Translations under genes and position numbers: made by a program
In this document: in pieces, positions 3,238 to 8,516 of the stretch
How the letters are laid out: the number at the start of each line of letters is the position of its first letter
How positions within the stretch are numbered: position 1 is the stretch's first letter
Notes under the pieces: generated by a model
Database searches by the model: none
What the model saw: only the letters and a program-made list of their open reading frames with translations
What the model was told of the DNA's origin: nothing
Source of the DNA: a virus
Lineage: Duplodnaviria > Heunggongvirae > Uroviricota > Caudoviricetes
Reading direction: 5' to 3' (one strand)
DNA: 33,149 bases
Virus record (IMG/VR): IMGVR_UViG_2526164669_000028

Positions 3238-3509
3238 GTATTCGTATTGAAATTGGCGAACGTTATGTCGTTACCGGTGACAGCTTCCAGTTTATTCTCC
3301 ACGAGAAAAAGAGAGCGGAAAGCGGTAAAAACGCCGGTCAGGAATGGCTGGCGGTGGTTGGTTATTACCCGAAATTAAGCCAGCTCGTTTCCGGCCTGAT
3401 GCATCACGATATTCTGACCGGAAGCGCAAAGTCTTTTGCTGATTTAAACGCGCAGGTTGAGCAACTCAGCAAGCGTTGTTCAGAGGCTTTTGGCTCATAT
3501 GGCCGTTAA
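3234..3509 (+). CDS. Hypothetical early protein (P2 orf83-like)
   Basis: 91-aa ORF, ATGA overlap with upstream gene; its 3' end overlaps the A start. Confidence 0.65.
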   Translation: MSIRIEIGERYVVTGDSFQFILHEKKRAESGKNAGQEWLAVVGYYPKLSQLVSGLMHHDILTGSAKSFADLNAQVEQLSKRCSEAFGSYGR

Positions 3510-5787
3510 AGCCTCCGGGCGTTTTGTCCCTCCGTCAGCATTTGCTGCAGGCACCGGTAAGGCGTTTACCGGTGCTTATGCATGGAACGCGCCACGCGAG
3601 GCTGTCGGGCGCGAAAGACCCCTTACACGTGACGAGATGCGTCAGGTGCAAGGTGTTTTATCCACGATTAACCGCCTGCCTTACTTTTTGCGCTCGCTGT
3701 TTACGTCACGCTATGACTACATCCGGCGCAATAAAAGCCCGGTGCACGGGTTTTATTTCCTCACATCCACTTTTCAGCGTCGTTTATGGCCGCGCATTGA
3801 GCGTGTGAATCAGCGCCATGAAATGAACACCGACGCGTCGATGCTGTTTCTGGCTGAGCGTGACCACTATGCGCGCCTGCCGGGAATGAATGACAAGGAG
3901 CTGAAAAAGTTTGCCGCCCGTATCTCATCGCAGCTTTTCATGATGCATGAGGAACTCAGCGATGCCTGGGTGGATGCGCATGGCGAAAAAGAATCGCTGT
4001 TTACGGATGAGGCGCAGGCTCACCTCTATGGTCATGTTGCTGGCGCTGCACGTGCTTTCAATATTTCCCCTCTCTACTGGAAAAAATACCGTAAAGGACA
4101 GATGACCACGAGGCAGGCATATTCTGCCATTGCCCGTCTGTTTAACGATGAGTGGTGGATTAGTCAGCTTAAAGGCCAGCGTATGCGCTGGCATGAGGCG
4201 TTACTGATTGCTGTCGGGGAGGTCAATAAAGACCGTTCTCCTTATGCCAGTAAACATGCCATTCGTGATGTGCGTGCACGCCGCCAGGCAAATCTGGAAT
4301 TTCTTAAATCGTGTGATCTCGAAAACAGGGAAACAGGCGAGCGCATCGACCTTATCAGTAAGGTGATGGGCAGTATTTCTAATCCTGAAATTCGCCGGAT
4401 GGAGCTGATGAACACCATTGCCGGTATTGAGCGTTACGCCGCCGCAGAAGGTGATGTGGGGATGTTTATCACGCTGACCGCGCCGTCAAAGTATCACCCG
4501 ACACGTCAGGTTGGAAAAGGCGAAAGTAAAACCGTCCAGCTAAATCACGGCTGGAACGATGAGGCATTTAATCCAAAGGATGCGCAGCGTTATCTCTGCC
4601 GTATCTGGAGCCTGATGCGCACGGCATTCAAGGATAATGATTTACAGGTCTACGGTTTGCGAGTCGTCGAGCCACACCACGACGGAACGCCGCACTGGCA
4701 TATGATGCTTTTTTGTAATCCACGCCAGCGTAACCAGATTATCGAAATCATGCGTCGCTACGCGCTCAAAGAGGATGGCGACGAAAGAGGAGCTGCGCGA
4801 AACCGTTTTCAGGCAAAACATCTTAATCGGGGCGGTGCTGCGGGGTATATCGCGAAATACATCTCAAAAAATATCGACGGCTATGCACTGGATGGGCAGC
4901 TCGATAACGATACCGGCAGACCGCTGAAAGACACTGCAGCGGCTGTTACCGCATGGGCGTCAACGTGGCGTATCCCGCAATTTAAAACGGTTGGTCTGCC
5001 GACAATGGGGGCTTACCGTGAACTACGCAAATTGCCTCGCGGCGTCAGCATTGCTGATGAGTTTGACGAACGCGTCGAAGCTGCACGCGCCGCCGCAGAC
5101 AGTGGTGATTTTGCGTTGTATATCAGCGCGCAGGGCGGGGCAAATGTCCCACGCGATTGTCAGACTGTCAGGGTCGCCCGTAGTCCGTCGGATGAAGTTA
5201 ACGAGTACGAGGAAGAAGTCGAGAGAGTGGTCGGCATTTACGCGCCGCATCTCGGCGCGCGTCATATTCATATCACCAGAACGACGGACTGGCGCATTGT
5301 TCCGAAAGTGCCGGTCGTTGAGCCTTTGACTTTAAAAAGCGGCATCGCCGCGCCTCGGAGTCCTGTCAATAACTGTGGAAAGCTCACCGGTGGTGATACT
5401 TCGTTACCGGCTCCCACACCTTCTGAGCACGCCGCAGCAGTGCTTAATCTGGTTGATGACGGTGTTATCGGATGGAATGACCCGGAGGTCGTGAGGGCGC
5501 TCAGGGGCGCATTAAAACACGGCCTGAGAACATCAAATCGTCAGCAAAGAAACGGAAGCCCGTTAAAACCGCATGAAATAGCACCATCTGCCAGACTGAC
5601 CCGGTCTGAACGATTGCAAATCACCCGTATCCGCGTTGACCTTGCTCAGAACGGTATCAGACCGCAGCGATGGGAGCTTGAGGCGCTGGCGCGTGGGGCA
5701 ACCGTAAATTATGACGGGAAAAAATTCACGTATATGGTTACTAATGAGTGGTTCGGATTTCAAGATGAAGTGTCATTTTTCATGTAA
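3499..5787 (+). CDS. A: Replication initiation endonuclease gpA (rolling-circle nickase)
   Basis: ORF 3457..5787; start set at MAVKASGRFVPP (3499), matching the recalled P2 A N-terminus; 762 codons versus 761 aa in P2; HxH-type motif (HHDGTPHWHMM) present. Confidence 0.92.
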   Translation: MAVKASGRFVPPSAFAAGTGKAFTGAYAWNAPREAVGRERPLTRDEMRQVQGVLSTINRLPYFLRSLFTSRYDYIRRNKSPVHGFYFLTSTFQRRLWPRIERVNQRHEMNTDASMLFLAERDHYARLPGMNDKELKKFAARISSQLFMMHEELSDAWVDAHGEKESLFTDEAQAHLYGHVAGAARAFNISPLYWKKYRKGQMTTRQAYSAIARLFNDEWWISQLKGQRMRWHEALLIAVGEVNKDRSPYASKHAIRDVRARRQANLEFLKSCDLENRETGERIDLISKVMGSISNPEIRRMELMNTIAGIERYAAAEGDVGMFITLTAPSKYHPTRQVGKGESKTVQLNHGWNDEAFNPKDAQRYLCRIWSLMRTAFKDNDLQVYGLRVVEPHHDGTPHWHMMLFCNPRQRNQIIEIMRRYALKEDGDERGAARNRFQAKHLNRGGAAGYIAKYISKNIDGYALDGQLDNDTGRPLKDTAAAVTAWASTWRIPQFKTVGLPTMGAYRELRKLPRGVSIADEFDERVEAARAAADSGDFALYISAQGGANVPRDCQTVRVARSPSDEVNEYEEEVERVVGIYAPHLGARHIHITRTTDWRIVPKVPVVEPLTLKSGIAAPRSPVNNCGKLTGGDTSLPAPTPSEHAAAVLNLVDDGVIGWNDPEVVRALRGALKHGLRTSNRQQRNGSPLKPHEIAPSARLTRSERLQITRIRVDLAQNGIRPQRWELEALARGATVNYDGKKFTYMVTNEWFGFQDEVSFFM

Positions 5788-6195
5788 AACACTTTAAAAT
5801 TCAATGCAATGAAAGCATATCCATGTCTCATTGATATGCCTTTCAGTTATTATATATTTGTTTTATATGAAAAAATATCATATGCAGGGGGAGCAAATAC
5901 AACGGTTTACTTGTTATGATGCAAACATTGGTTAGTTAGTGAGATATATCGCCATCAATTGGGTATTTTTACCCGTGGAAAGTTAACGCTTTCTAACACT
6001 TACCCCGCGCAACGCCCCTGCCAGCGACAGGAGTCACAGGATCAGGAGGTATGGCGTATGGGTATTCGAACCCTTTGGGCGACCAAGGGTTCGTGGAGCA
6101 GGGGGCTAGTGCTGTTCAATCTCATCCTTATGAGGGCGAACCATAGTGTTGGAGCAGACATACCGTTTGCACACTATGGGCATAAGGAGCAAATC
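5788..6195 (+). ncRNA. Candidate structured non-coding leader (possible retron msr/msd RNA) upstream of the RT cassette
   Basis: About 400-nt AT-rich non-coding gap after A. Hairpins: GCATATC...GATATGC (5817-5840), GAACCCTT...AAGGGTTC (6067-6091), CCATAGTGT...ACACTATGG (6141-6178, 9-bp stem). Boundaries and function are not resolved by eye. Confidence 0.25.
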
Positions 6196-6351
6196 ATGAA
6201 GAATGATAAATTAACCAACGAACAGCAGGCGCAGAACAAGTCAAACCTGAAAAAGTGGGCTGGTTACGCTTGGAAATTAATCAAATGGGGTATTAGACTG
6301 TTTGATTTAGTTACTCGAGCACTGGACTACTTCGAAGGGGGTGATGAGTAA
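6196..6351 (+). CDS. Small hypothetical protein (51 aa), first ORF of the RT cassette
   Basis: ATG preceded by AAGGAG at 7 nt spacing; MKNDKLTNEQQAQNKSNLKKWAGYAWKLIKWGIRLFDLVTRALDYFEGGDE. The annotated 5959..6351 ORF is treated as a spurious 5' extension. Could instead be part of the ncRNA. Confidence 0.4.
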   Translation: MKNDKLTNEQQAQNKSNLKKWAGYAWKLIKWGIRLFDLVTRALDYFEGGDE

Positions 6352-6375
6352 TGCGTCCTCCCTAGTTTCAATAGC

Positions 6376-6696
6376 ATGGAGTTGCCTATGTTACATAAAG
6401 CCCTTCGTTTAATAAGGCAATACCATAAAGAATCAATAGTTGAGTTATCTTCATCTTTAGGTATTCCAAAAGACAAAATAGTATCGCTTGAAAGCGGAGT
6501 TTGGTCACCGTCGATTGAAGTCTTAGAGCGTTACGCCTCCCATTTCGACATACCAGTATCCTCTTTAGTATTCTTTTCGGAATCATTAGGCACGCAAGGC
6601 CGTTTGTCTAAGCGATTGCGTTTAAATTTAGCCGGTAAAGTTCTGGATGTTCTGGAGTGGGTAAGTAATAAAAATGAAAAAACGGAAAAAGCTTAA
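6376..6696 (+). CDS. XRE-family helix-turn-helix protein associated with the retron-type RT
   Basis: 106 aa; HTH signature (...IVELSSSLGIPKDKIVSLESGVWSPSIEVLERYASHF...); overlaps the RT start by 23 nt, suggesting co-translation. The start may be the second ATG at 6388. Confidence 0.7.
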   Translation: MELPMLHKALRLIRQYHKESIVELSSSLGIPKDKIVSLESGVWSPSIEVLERYASHFDIPVSSLVFFSESLGTQGRLSKRLRLNLAGKVLDVLEWVSNKNEKTEKA

Positions 6697-7624
6697 AGTT
6701 AATACTAAAAATAAATCTTATGACATAATGGATTCGCCATTTTATAAACTCAAAAGTAAAAGAAAACTGGCGAATTTGCTTTGTGTTAGTCTTGATGATT
6801 TATACTCTTTGAGAAAAGATGAAGGAAACTATTCCGTTTTTGAGCAGCTTTCTAAAAAAGGGAAAGCACGAAAAATACAAAAGCCTTTAGAAAAACTAGA
6901 ACTTGTACATACACGAATTGCAAGTTTGTTATCGCGGATTGCTTTGCCAGAATATCTGCACTCAGGGAAGAAGAAGTGCTCTAATGTGACGAATGCTAAA
7001 GCTCATCTTAATAATGAAAAGATGATGACAACAGATATTAAAGCTTTTTTTCCATCAACTACAAGAGGGATGATATTTTCTTTTTTCTTTTCGGTGATGA
7101 AAATGTCATCTGATGTTGCTGATGTTTTGTCCCACATATGTACTTGTCATGACCGATTGCCAACAGGTAGTCGAATCAGTATGCCGTTGGCATATTTTGC
7201 AAATTCAAGAATGTTTGGTGAAATATATCAACTTTGCCAAAAGTTACGAGTTAACATGACTGTTTATGTTGATGATCTCACTTTTTCAGGTAGTAACGTA
7301 AATCGATTGTTCTGCGCTGTAATTCGTAAGATCGTTAATAAGCATGGGCATGTTATACACCCAACGAAAACAAAACTATATGCCAGAGATAAGCCTAAGT
7401 TGGTAACTGGAGTTATTGTATTAGGCAATGCATTAAAAGTTAGGAATGAGCAGCATTTTTTGATGGCTAGGGAAATAGATTATTGGAAAATAATTAAAGA
7501 CGCCGAAAATGCGAGAGAAACAATCATTGCCAAAAAGCTCTTTGGTCGTTTGCATTCAATGGGAGTGATTGAGCAACGTTACAAATCTAAGGTGCTTACT
7601 TTAAAGGCTAATACTGCAAATTAA
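6674..7624 (+). CDS. Retron-type reverse transcriptase (316 aa)
   Basis: Contains NAKAH (NAxxH), DIKAFFPST, LPTGSRISMPLA (LPQG-like), YVDD catalytic motif and VTG triplet (KLVTGVIV); the order and spacing resemble recalled retron RT Ec86. AT-rich relative to the phage backbone. Confidence 0.85.
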   Translation: MKKRKKLKVNTKNKSYDIMDSPFYKLKSKRKLANLLCVSLDDLYSLRKDEGNYSVFEQLSKKGKARKIQKPLEKLELVHTRIASLLSRIALPEYLHSGKKKCSNVTNAKAHLNNEKMMTTDIKAFFPSTTRGMIFSFFFSVMKMSSDVADVLSHICTCHDRLPTGSRISMPLAYFANSRMFGEIYQLCQKLRVNMTVYVDDLTFSGSNVNRLFCAVIRKIVNKHGHVIHPTKTKLYARDKPKLVTGVIVLGNALKVRNEQHFLMAREIDYWKIIKDAENARETIIAKKLFGRLHSMGVIEQRYKSKVLTLKANTAN

Positions 7625-7670
7625 CATATTGAATGTATTGCATAATAGCATCAATAATGAAAATGACTTT

Positions 7671-7722
7671 GGCGTTAGTAACGCCGCCAGTGCAGGAATT
7701 TACTTTCGGTGCAGGCGGCGTT
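7671..7722. terminator. Hairpin cluster between the convergent RT and 145-aa genes (putative bidirectional terminator)
   Basis: AACGCCGCC (7680-7688) pairs with GGCGGCGTT (7714-7722), a 9-bp stem; nested GGCGTTAGTAACGCC element at 7671-7685. Confidence 0.35.
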
Positions 7723-7748
7723 GATTAGAAACCTCAGAAAGTAGTTAG

Positions 7749-8186
7749 CTATGAAGCTGACGTCACAAAATTAACACCAAGAGTCAACAGGTTTGTCACT
7801 GCTCCAGCAATGACACCTGGAGTCCCGTCTTTTACTGCACTGATAATTTTATCTCCCATCGTTTCATTACCGCCAAGTGCTTCGGGTTTTTTGTTGAGCA
7901 CCGCGAGTGCTTTCTCGGTCAGGCGCACATCATGAAAACCAGTCTGATGGTCTGTTCCGTACAGAATATAGCCGTTTTCGCTTAGGAAAGTGAATGTGCC
8001 ATCAACCACACTACGCAACTGATTCAGTGCTTTCATTTCTGGTGAGTTAAGTTGGTCAAAGTAGTCATCAGGTAACGCGGCGTTAAATTTTTTGTAGGTG
8101 ATGACTTGTGGTACAGGAAAGTTATCCCATAGCACCGCAAAGATTTCAGCCGTCTGCTGGTTAAATAATTCGAGGTTTTTGGACAT
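7749..8186 (-). CDS. Hypothetical protein (145 aa) with Gly/Ala-rich hydrophobic C-terminus; cargo gene convergent to the RT cassette
   Basis: Minus ORF with AAGGG RBS 7 nt upstream; C-terminal ...DGTPGVIAGAVTNLLTLGVNFVTSAS suggests a membrane-interacting tail; AT-rich. Confidence 0.6.
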   Translation of the reverse strand: MSKNLELFNQQTAEIFAVLWDNFPVPQVITYKKFNAALPDDYFDQLNSPEMKALNQLRSVVDGTFTFLSENGYILYGTDHQTGFHDVRLTEKALAVLNKKPEALGGNETMGDKIISAVKDGTPGVIAGAVTNLLTLGVNFVTSAS

Positions 8187-8379
8187 GCATAATTCCCTTT
8201 CATCAATTAAAGACCCTTATGCCGACTGGGCAAAGAGACTCACTGTAATGGCCTCAAATAACGACCTGAGTTCCCGCGAAGTGGAAAGCTACACCGAAAA
8301 AATGGTCGAGCAAGCCAGTAAAGATGAGCTTACGGTCGTTATCAAACACCTTTTAAACCACATCAGAATGAACAAATAA
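8185..8379 (+). CDS. Small hypothetical ORF (65 aa)
   Basis: Internal Met of ORF 8098..8379; GAGG about 9 nt upstream; its start overlaps the start codon of the divergent 145-aa gene, so it may not be real. Confidence 0.3.
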   Translation: MHNSLSSIKDPYADWAKRLTVMASNNDLSSREVESYTEKMVEQASKDELTVVIKHLLNHIRMNK

Positions 8380-8516
8380 AAGGATCTTTATCAATATGTT
8401 ATCTCTCGTTTATGAAAATCCGTGGACGACGGTTTTTTTGCTGATTGTAGCCACTTGTTGCCTTACCAGTATTATTGGCGCATTGCGCGACAAGTAACCA
8501 CAATGAAGCTGACTCA

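What the first reader, a model, noticed from the sequence alone, without database searches (positions are those of the whole stretch)
7749..8186. Convergent 145-aa cargo gene with Gly/Ala-rich hydrophobic C-terminal tail
This AT-rich gene sits on the opposite strand, immediately downstream of the RT cassette and within the same hotspot. It ends in ...GTPGVIAGAVTNLLTLGVNFVTSAS, a possible membrane-inserting segment. It could be an independent defence or abortive-infection effector, or a partner of the RT system. I recognise no family.
Basis: partly seen in the sequence, partly recalled or inferred. Interest (0 to 1): 0.55.

Follow-up and report, generated by a model that had tools for sequence, protein, structure and literature searches.

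The report
Orphan winged-helix prophage accessory gene
The 145-codon gene is real and well conserved, but it is not part of the neighbouring retron and is unlikely to be a membrane protein: it is an uncharacterised, acidic winged-helix accessory gene that P2-like and BcepMu-like prophages carry at many different genome positions.

Summary
The ORF at 7749-8186 (-) is a genuine gene. Median dN/dS is 0.07, and it matches PHROG 2266 (unknown function) over its full length at E=2e-61. The window is a P2-like prophage, and the gene lies in the gpA-cos-gpQ hotspot.

**Retron link.** The adjacent cassette is a type VI retron. Published work shows this retron type is complete as ncRNA + small-protein toxin + HTH + RT. 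The 145-aa gene assorts independently of it: only 11 of 43 IMG/VR loci with the gene also carry the retron, and in E. coli only about 29 of 79 gene copies and 99 retron copies are adjacent.

**Structure.** The predicted fold is a winged helix followed by two C-terminal helices. The family has at least 659 clusters at 50% identity and is consistently acidic (pI about 5).

**Tail.** The "hydrophobic tail" is an amphipathic helix in most members. It is not predicted to insert in membranes: Hessa ΔG is +4.3 kcal/mol, and 0 of 228 tails score ≤1.

**Context.** In enterobacteria the gene sits head-to-head with a 64-aa gene, with start codons overlapping by 2 nt. That gene is followed by a possible 33-aa membrane peptide and a terminator, and it also occurs without the 145-aa gene. 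Distant relatives sit as opposite-strand "morons" inside tail and head operons.

**Verdict.** Function is unknown. It is most likely a lysogen-expressed protein-binding factor. Interest is modest.

The parts
7749..8186 (-). 145-aa gene. Acidic winged-helix domain (about residues 1-100) plus a C-terminal helical hairpin (helices 110-120 and 123-143). Member of PHROG 2266.
7679..7724 (.). GC-rich hairpin between the two convergent stop codons (RT and the 145-aa gene). No U-tract. Probable bidirectional terminator that travels with the 3' end of the 145-aa gene.
   Evidence: Folding energy -21 to -25 kcal/mol on either strand. The same 45 nt lie downstream of the gene in Midge, FSL SP-004, L025 and L028, and after dinI in L006 and L033.
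8185..8379 (+). 64-aa gene (PHROG 2454), head-to-head with the 145-aa gene. The two ATGs overlap by 2 nt (CATG), and each gene's ribosome-binding site lies in the other's first codons. Predicted three-helix bundle.
   Evidence: phrog_2454 E=1.4e-40. dN/dS 0.154. Invariant NNDLSSRE and LLNHIR motifs. AF2 pLDDT 75. Present next to the 145-aa gene in all 13 curated loci and in the IMG/VR tally, and alone in many prophages.
8396..8497 (+). Possible 33-aa single-pass membrane peptide ORF downstream of the 64-aa gene. Coding status is uncertain.
   Evidence: Conserved in most loci but degenerate in L005 and absent in L027 and L029. dN/dS 0.28. Hessa insertion energy -1.8 kcal/mol. It overlaps a terminator-like hairpin at 8406-8429.
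8516..8545 (+). Intrinsic terminator closing the 64-aa/33-aa transcription unit, just before the cos region.
   Evidence: 9-bp stem plus T-run. Conserved as AAACCGGCA...TGCCGGTTTTTTT in 11 loci.

Best explanation
The gene is an autonomous prophage accessory ('moron') gene of the uncharacterised family PHROG 2266. It is not a component of the adjacent type VI retron.

Shown:
- It is a real gene under strong purifying selection.
- Its product is predicted to be a small acidic winged-helix domain followed by a conserved helical hairpin. The last helix is amphipathic in most members and uncharged but weakly hydrophobic in the enterobacterial branch.
- The family is spread over P2-like and BcepMu-like temperate phages of Alpha-, Beta- and Gammaproteobacteria. 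It has landed at several different genome positions, usually on the strand opposite to the surrounding late operons, and beside unrelated cargo.

Inferred:
- It is transcribed on its own in the lysogen.
- It works as a self-sufficient protein-binding (or peripherally membrane-associated) factor that sequesters or modulates a conserved phage or host protein, for example in superinfection exclusion or host modulation.
- It does not act as a classical DNA-binding repressor or an integral-membrane toxin.
- In enterobacterial P2-like phages its expression is probably coupled by antisense or transcriptional interference to the divergent 64-aa gene, whose start codon it overlaps.
For: Real gene.

Family size and uniform length: 659 representatives at E<=1e-3, all about 125-170 aa and matching end to end. 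Distant members all hit phrog_2266 at E 1e-30 to 1e-39.

Fold. Weak profile hits go only to winged-helix families such as MarR, YjcQ, AspA, eS10 and DUF2513.

Acidity: median pI is 4.8 in the enterobacterial branch and 5.1 in distant members, with 177 of 187 distant members below 7. K92 is the only near-invariant basic residue.

Independence from the retron:
- Midge has only dinI beside the gene, FSL SP-004 has Fic, and others have an MBL-fold gene, or GNAT plus an AAA ATPase.
- In IMG/VR, 11 of 43 loci with the gene carry the retron.
- In complete E. coli genomes the gene is in 79, the retron in 99, and they are adjacent in about 29. Strain KE40 has them 586 kb apart.
- Retron VI is followed instead by an FRG-domain gene or another hypothetical gene.

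Moron behaviour of distant relatives: between the tail assembly chaperone (TAC) gene and the tail tube gene (13 loci), beside the major capsid gene (23), between the repressor gene and gpD (about 10), next to dam, between gpD and gpX, and in small islands.

Completeness of type VI retrons without this gene.
Against: - No experiment, expression data or homology links the family to any function.
- No convincing sigma-70 promoter was found for the gene.
- Only one of the five AF2 models was confident (89.5, against 72, 68, 55 and 45). The alignment behind it had 21 close sequences.
- Many acidic MarR-type proteins still bind DNA, so DNA binding is not excluded.
- In enterobacteria the gene was never seen without the 64-aa gene (13 of 13 curated loci; IMG/VR tally). 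A two-gene function in this branch therefore remains possible.
Confidence: 0.6

Rival explanations
1. Local regulator. The winged-helix protein is a repressor that, with the divergent 64-aa gene, forms a small face-to-face promoter switch like C/Cox of P2 or CI/Apl of 186. The switch would control the 64-aa/33-aa operon or nearby cargo.
For: - Winged-helix fold. The Midge annotators called it a putative transcriptional regulator.
- The start codons overlap head-to-head, so each promoter must lie inside the other gene. This arrangement is kept in all 13 enterobacterial loci.
- The cassette has its own hairpin and terminator at both ends.
Against: - The family is acidic and has no conserved basic residue in the putative recognition helix or wing.
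- The 64-aa/33-aa unit exists without the gene in many prophages. Examples are the Salmonella cluster P0305 listed in >2000 index blocks, 11 IMG/VR loci and 15 E. coli genomes. No repressor is therefore needed to tolerate it.
- Distant relatives lack any 64-aa homologue.
- The 145-aa and 64-aa genes do not co-diverge: L003 is 92% against 62% identical.
Confidence: 0.2
2. Tail-anchored membrane effector. The C-terminal Gly/Ala-rich segment inserts in the inner membrane, and the protein acts as an abortive-infection or exclusion effector there.
For: - The enterobacterial tails have no charged residue in 19-20 positions. Kyte-Doolittle mean is 1.52-1.56, and Eisenberg H/muH is 0.56/0.26.
- The tail is highly conserved.
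- The gene lies in a defence hotspot.
Against: - The Kyte-Doolittle value is below the usual 1.6 cut-off.
- Summed Hessa energy is +4.3 kcal/mol, and 0 of 228 tails score <=1. By contrast the neighbouring 33-aa ORF scores -1.8.
- In the wider family the helix carries about 3 charged residues in an amphipathic pattern, and only 2 of 187 reach Kyte-Doolittle 1.6.
- AF2 places it in a compact single-domain model with pTM 0.83.
- There is no PADLOC hit.
Confidence: 0.12
3. Accessory partner of the type VI retron, such as a second effector or sensor encoded convergently downstream of the RT.
For: - Adjacency in this window, in about 29 E. coli genomes, in many Salmonella assemblies (cluster P0268, >1500 index blocks) and in Klebsiella phage ST147-VIM1phi7.1.
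- The slot after the RT is variable (FRG-domain gene, a hypothetical gene, or this gene).
Against: - Most copies of the gene lack the retron, and most retron copies lack the gene.
- The gene is on the opposite strand, separated by a hairpin.
- Type VI retron operons defined as ncRNA-SP-HTH-RT defend when expressed in E. coli: Retron-Sen3, -Eco12 and -Vpa2. No downstream gene is named as part of the system in the passages read; the exact boundaries of the cloned inserts were not checked.
- The SP toxin of this window's retron is present at 6196-6351.
Confidence: 0.03

Closest known systems
PHROG 2266 (phage protein family of unknown function)
   Same: Full-length match, E=2.4e-61, positions 1-143 of 144. 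All distant relatives tested match the same profile.
   Different: Nothing. This is the family, but it carries no functional annotation.
Small winged-helix phage or prophage proteins (DUF2513 PF10711, YjcQ PF09639, PadR/MarR-like wHTH)
   Same: Same fold class. They share the '...GYI...(wing)...LT.KG...L' signature. Marginal profile hits: MarR 3s2w E=0.047, YjcQ 2hgc E=0.32, and DUF2513 E=0.07 for relative P0230. UniRef labels two relatives DUF2513.
   Different: All hits fall below every curated threshold. The protein has an extra conserved N-terminal helix (NIxxFN...LYExFP) and a C-terminal helical hairpin. It is acidic, with no conserved basic recognition surface.
Phage morons and lysogenic-conversion genes, e.g. 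P2 fun(Z), tin and old, and Pseudomonas phage morons such as Tip and Aqs1 (from general knowledge)
   Same: Small stand-alone genes inserted between or against late operons or in the cos-proximal hotspot. Their base composition is atypical, and their presence varies among close relatives.
   Different: No sequence or structural similarity to any of them, and no phenotype is known.
Type VI retron (ncRNA-SP-HTH-RT; Retron-Eco12, -Sen3, -Vpa2)
   Same: Physical neighbour in this window. PADLOC gives RT_VI at 4e-105 and HTH_VI at 8e-31.
   Different: The gene is not one of the retron's components and assorts independently.

Membership tests
PHROG 2266 | Significant full-length match to the family profile | tested here: met
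   E=2.4e-61, residues 1-142 against profile positions 1-143 of 144.
Type VI retron system | Is one of the operon components (ncRNA, SP toxin, HTH antitoxin, RT) as defined and in the PADLOC models | tested here: not met
   No PADLOC hit for the protein at E<=1. SP, HTH and RT are all accounted for at 6196-7624 on the other strand.
Type VI retron system | Consistent co-occurrence with the RT | tested here: not met
   11 of 43 IMG/VR loci. About 29 adjacent among 79 gene copies and 99 retron copies in E. coli. Retrons are followed by FRG or other genes instead.
Winged-helix DNA-binding regulators (MarR/PadR-like) | Winged-helix fold | tested here: met
Winged-helix DNA-binding regulators (MarR/PadR-like) | Match to a curated wHTH family above threshold | tested here: not met
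   No Pfam or NCBIfam family reaches the gathering score. Foldseek against PDB and BFVD gives E>0.1 throughout.
Winged-helix DNA-binding regulators (MarR/PadR-like) | Conserved basic recognition helix or wing; DNA binding | tested here: inconclusive
   The family is acidic (median pI about 5) and only K92 is conserved. Actual DNA binding cannot be tested with these tools.
Integral or tail-anchored membrane proteins | A hydrophobic segment of about 19+ residues predicted to insert, conserved in the family | tested here: not met
   Kyte-Doolittle mean 1.52. Hessa sum +4.3 kcal/mol, and 0 of 228 tails score <=1. Distant tails are charged and amphipathic.
Known anti-phage defence proteins (PADLOC-DB 2.0; Rousset 2022 P2/P4 systems) | Homology to a component of a described or candidate system | tested here: not met
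   0 PADLOC families. The Rousset 'hp+hp+hp' system consists of unrelated 230-370-aa proteins, and the protein is listed there only as 'hypothetical' in hotspot loci.
Toxin-antitoxin pair with the 64-aa/33-aa unit | Obligatory pairing: the partner is not tolerated alone | tested here: not met
   The 64-aa (+33-aa) unit is common with only a 19-codon remnant of the gene. Toxicity itself was not tested.

The most novel reading that the evidence does not exclude
PHROG 2266 is a self-sufficient single-gene lysogenic-conversion factor of a new kind. An acidic winged-helix decoy or adaptor, expressed from the prophage, sequesters a conserved phage or host protein. The outcome could be superinfection exclusion, anti-satellite activity or counter-defence. 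This would explain why the same small gene has been captured at half a dozen different sites in P2-like and BcepMu-like phages across three proteobacterial classes.
Probability: 0.25. Interest if true: 0.55.

Novelty: new member of a known kind. Interest (0 to 1): 0.3.

Why it matters
The main value is in tidying the picture. The gene should not be added to the type VI retron model, and it should not be annotated as a membrane protein or, without evidence, as a transcriptional regulator. It also flags a sizeable dark-matter family: at least 659 clusters at 50% identity, absent from Pfam. Its repeated capture as a moron makes it a reasonable, cheap candidate for phenotype screens of prophage accessory genes. 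If it proved to be an exclusion or counter-defence factor, it would add a new single-gene family to the P2 hotspot repertoire.

Tried and rejected
1. Pfam, NCBIfam and PADLOC scans of the protein, and Pfam scans of 36 relatives, gave nothing above threshold.
2. Sequence search of the PDB gave spurious LRR 'repebody' hits from a short DxxFDxL repeat-like stretch. They were rejected.
3. Foldseek against PDB and BFVD gave no hit with E<0.1. The afdb50 library was unavailable.
5. I tested whether the module is Rousset's three-hypothetical-protein (3HP) system. It is not.
6. I looked for a conserved partner in distant relatives. The Burkholderia head-to-head 75-aa ORF is unrelated to the 64-aa protein, and the large ORFs downstream in two Pseudomonas islands (571 and 767 aa) are unrelated to each other and have no domains.
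7. Promoter scans and a LexA-box search around the gene gave nothing above chance.
8. Rfam found no RNA family in 5700-9000 apart from a chance-level hit.
9. An 11-nt direct repeat flanking the module (7751 and 8503) is not conserved in other loci, so I treated it as chance.
10. Searches for the RefSeq accessions, the PHROG id and DUF2513, over the main text of the held PMC and bioRxiv library only, found no paper.

Full report
**Setting.** The window is a P2-like prophage. It carries:
- integrase (1-1011, -), repressor, cox and B genes;
- replication gene A (3457-5787);
- a variable region;
- the cos region (about 8550-8890);
- portal (8900-9935), terminase (9935-11737), scaffold and capsid genes, and so on (portal and terminase matches).

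The finding therefore lies in the gpA-cos-gpQ hotspot described by Rousset et al. 2022 (PMC9122126). The "RT cassette" next to it is a type VI retron. PADLOC gives RT_VI at 4e-105 and HTH_VI at 8e-31. The 51-aa ORF at 6196-6351 (phrog_15287; annotated in RefSeq strain EC-10) occupies the position of the small-protein (SP) toxin.

The ORF at 7749-8186 (-) encodes 145 aa ending exactly as quoted. It converges on the RT gene across 124 nt and is moderately AT-rich (GC 0.42-0.43). It is a real gene:
- it has full-length homologues in Escherichia, Salmonella, Klebsiella, Citrobacter, Enterobacter, Cronobacter, Kosakonia and others at 62-99% identity;
- it matches PHROG 2266 end to end at E=2.4e-61;
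- its median dN/dS is 0.073 over 61 pairs.

**What the protein looks like.**
- AlphaFold2 with a 21-sequence alignment gives a compact model: pLDDT 89.5 and pTM 0.83. Only the top model of five is confident.
- The order of elements is helix 3-22, strand, short helices, long helix 49-70, a β-hairpin at 74-89, helix 91-97, then two C-terminal helices (110-120 and 123-143).
- Foldseek against PDB and BFVD finds nothing at E<0.1.
- Profile searches give marginal hits to winged-helix families only.

**The family.** An exhaustive HMMER search finds 659 cluster representatives at E<=1e-3. All are 125-170 aa and match over their whole length. The distant ones tested again hit phrog_2266. The family is consistently acidic: median pI is 4.8 in the enterobacterial branch and 5.1 elsewhere, and 177 of 187 distant members are below pI 7. 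K92 is the only near-invariant basic residue. That weakens, but does not exclude, a classical DNA-binding role.

**The tail.** In the enterobacterial branch the last helix has no charged residue, but several measures argue against membrane insertion:

| Measure | This gene's tail | Comparison |
|---|---|---|
| Best 19-residue Kyte-Doolittle mean | 1.52 | usual cut-off 1.6 |
| Eisenberg H / μH | 0.56 / 0.26 | wider family 0.18 / 0.42 |
| Summed Hessa insertion energy | +4.3 kcal/mol | neighbouring 33-aa ORF -1.8 |

In the wider family the same helix carries about three charged residues in an amphipathic pattern, for example EVLKSAVKEALSLGIKM. Only 2 of 187 tails reach Kyte-Doolittle 1.6, and 0 of 228 have a Hessa sum ≤1. 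The tail is best read as a conserved amphipathic packing, oligomerisation or peripheral-membrane helix, not a transmembrane segment.

**Not a retron partner.** Two preprints define type VI retrons as ncRNA-SP-HTH-RT operons. Operons so defined defend when expressed in E. coli: Retron-Vpa2 and -Eco12 in 10.1101/2025.10.22.683967, and Retron-Sen3 in 10.64898/2026.04.27.721009. SP is the toxin and HTH the antitoxin. No downstream gene is named as part of the system in the passages I read; I did not check the exact boundaries of the cloned inserts. All of these parts are present upstream on the other strand.

The 145-aa gene occurs without any retron:
- in phage Midge, where only dinI is beside it;
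- in FSL SP-004, beside a Fic gene that hits PADLOC PDC-S04/SoFic;
- in E. coli prophages beside an MBL-fold gene (PDC-M48B), a GNAT gene plus an AAA ATPase pair (PDC-M29A/B), or small hypothetical genes.

Counts:
- Of 43 IMG/VR loci with the full gene, 11 carry the retron.
- Among 5,426 complete E. coli genomes the gene is in 79 and the retron in 99. They are adjacent in about 29, and strain KE40 has them 586 kb apart.
- Related retrons are followed instead by an FRG-domain gene or a 266-aa hypothetical gene.

**The local module.**
- In every enterobacterial locus examined, the gene's ATG overlaps by two bases the ATG of a divergent 64-aa gene at 8185-8379 (13 of 13 curated loci; IMG/VR tally).
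- That gene is PHROG 2454, has dN/dS 0.154 and invariant NNDLSSRE and LLNHIR motifs, and is predicted to be a three-helix bundle.
- Each gene's ribosome-binding site lies in the other's first codons. Their promoters must therefore lie within each other's coding sequence and face one another. This last step is inferred; no convincing σ70 sites were found.
- Downstream come a possible 33-aa membrane peptide ORF (8396-8497; weaker constraint, missing in some loci) and a strong terminator at 8516-8545.
- On the other side, a conserved GC-rich hairpin (7679-7724) follows the gene's stop in retron-free phages too.
- The 64-aa/33-aa unit does not need the gene. It is common alone, with just the first 19 codons of the 145-aa gene left as its upstream region.
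- The two genes do not co-diverge, and the 64-aa family is confined to Enterobacterales.

**Behaviour of the wider family.** Relatives at 23-47% identity sit in P2-like and BcepMu-like prophages of Pseudomonas, Burkholderia, Salmonella, Serratia, Tepidicaulis and others. Positions found:
- between the tail assembly chaperone (TAC) gene and the tail tube gene;
- between the capsid-scaffold block and the Mu G-like gene;
- between the immunity region and the lysis genes;
- between gpD and gpX;
- in a few small chromosomal islands.

In 80 IMG/VR contigs the recurrent settings were beside the capsid gene (23), between the TAC and tail tube genes (13), and between the repressor gene and gpD (about 10). 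The gene was usually antiparallel to its neighbours. This is the signature of a self-contained moron. No conserved partner emerged.

**Interpretation.** Three points are shown. The gene is real and conserved. It belongs to a large unannotated winged-helix family. It is an independently assorting accessory gene rather than part of the retron or an integral-membrane protein.

The rest is inferred. I think it most likely a lysogen-expressed, self-sufficient protein-binding factor, with exclusion or host modulation as plausible roles. A local repressor forming a switch with the 64-aa gene is the main rival. No published work mentions the protein; Rousset's tables list it only as "hypothetical", and it was not among the systems tested there.

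**Verdict.** This is an ordinary but uncharacterised prophage accessory gene. Interest is modest (0.3). The most novel reading still open is a new single-gene exclusion or counter-defence family, at a probability of about 0.25.

Noticed in passing
window 5800-7624: The RT cassette is a type VI retron with all published parts. There is a 51-aa ORF at 6196-6351 (phrog_15287) in the position of the SP toxin, HTH_VI at 6376-6696 and RT_VI at 6674-7624. The ncRNA presumably lies in about 5800-6195. The 130-aa ORF call at 5959-6351 is probably an over-extension of the SP gene.
   Followed up: partly
window 8185-8545: A 64-aa gene (PHROG 2454) has a start codon overlapping that of the 145-aa gene on the other strand. 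It is followed by a 33-aa predicted single-pass membrane ORF and a strong terminator. This unit is a near-constant cos-proximal feature of one subgroup of P2-like phages (Midge, FSL SP-004, SW9, ST147-VIM1phi7.1), and its function is unknown.
   Followed up: partly
window 9108-9135 (portal gene Q, 8900-9935, minus strand): The portal gene is split into two ORFs (9108-9935 and 8900-9208) by one extra A in an A-run (ATCAAAAAAAGCC). The near-identical prophage of E. coli EC-10 has an intact 1035-nt portal gene. This is either a sequencing error or an inactivating frameshift.
   Followed up: partly
window 7751-7761 and 8503-8513; 7622-7632 and 8391-8401: A perfect 11-nt direct repeat (ATGAAGCTGAC) brackets the 145/64/33 module. 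A perfect 11-nt inverted repeat links the RT stop to the start of the 33-aa ORF. About 0.1 of each is expected by chance in 1 kb. The direct repeat is not conserved in other loci.
   Followed up: partly
L006 3480-3560 vs L008 3480-3920; L084-L094: In prophages that lack the 145-aa gene, the deletion runs exactly from its stop codon to codon 20. It leaves 57 nt as the upstream region of the 64-aa gene, so that stretch probably holds signals needed by the 64-aa gene.
   Followed up: partly
L005 2247-3338; L002 1068-2108; L007 4547-6294: The cargo beside the module in other P2-like hotspots matches PADLOC candidate systems: PDC-M48B (MBL fold), PDC-S04/SoFic (Fic) and PDC-M29A/B (AAA ATPase plus partner). 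The Fic and MBL genes lie co-directionally just downstream of the 145-aa gene.
   Followed up: no
L039 5001-7195; L012 5001-8013: In two Pseudomonas chromosomal islands a family member is followed on the same strand by a large ORF (571 aa after a 38-nt gap; 767 aa after a 242-nt gap). Neither ORF has a Pfam or PADLOC match, and the two are unrelated to each other. L039 lies beside SMEK_N/DUF2326 and MbcA/ParS-like antitoxin genes.
   Followed up: partly
L034 4858-6222; L035 4915-5715: Related type VI retrons in P2 hotspots are followed by a convergent FRG-domain gene or by a co-directional 266-aa gene with no domain. The slot after the RT is itself a variable site.
   Followed up: no
L030 636-1076: Salmonella P2-like prophages with the same retron-plus-module arrangement encode a 146-aa DinI-domain protein right after gpA. 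It resembles the Tum antirepressor of phage 186; this comparison is from memory and was not tested.
   Followed up: no
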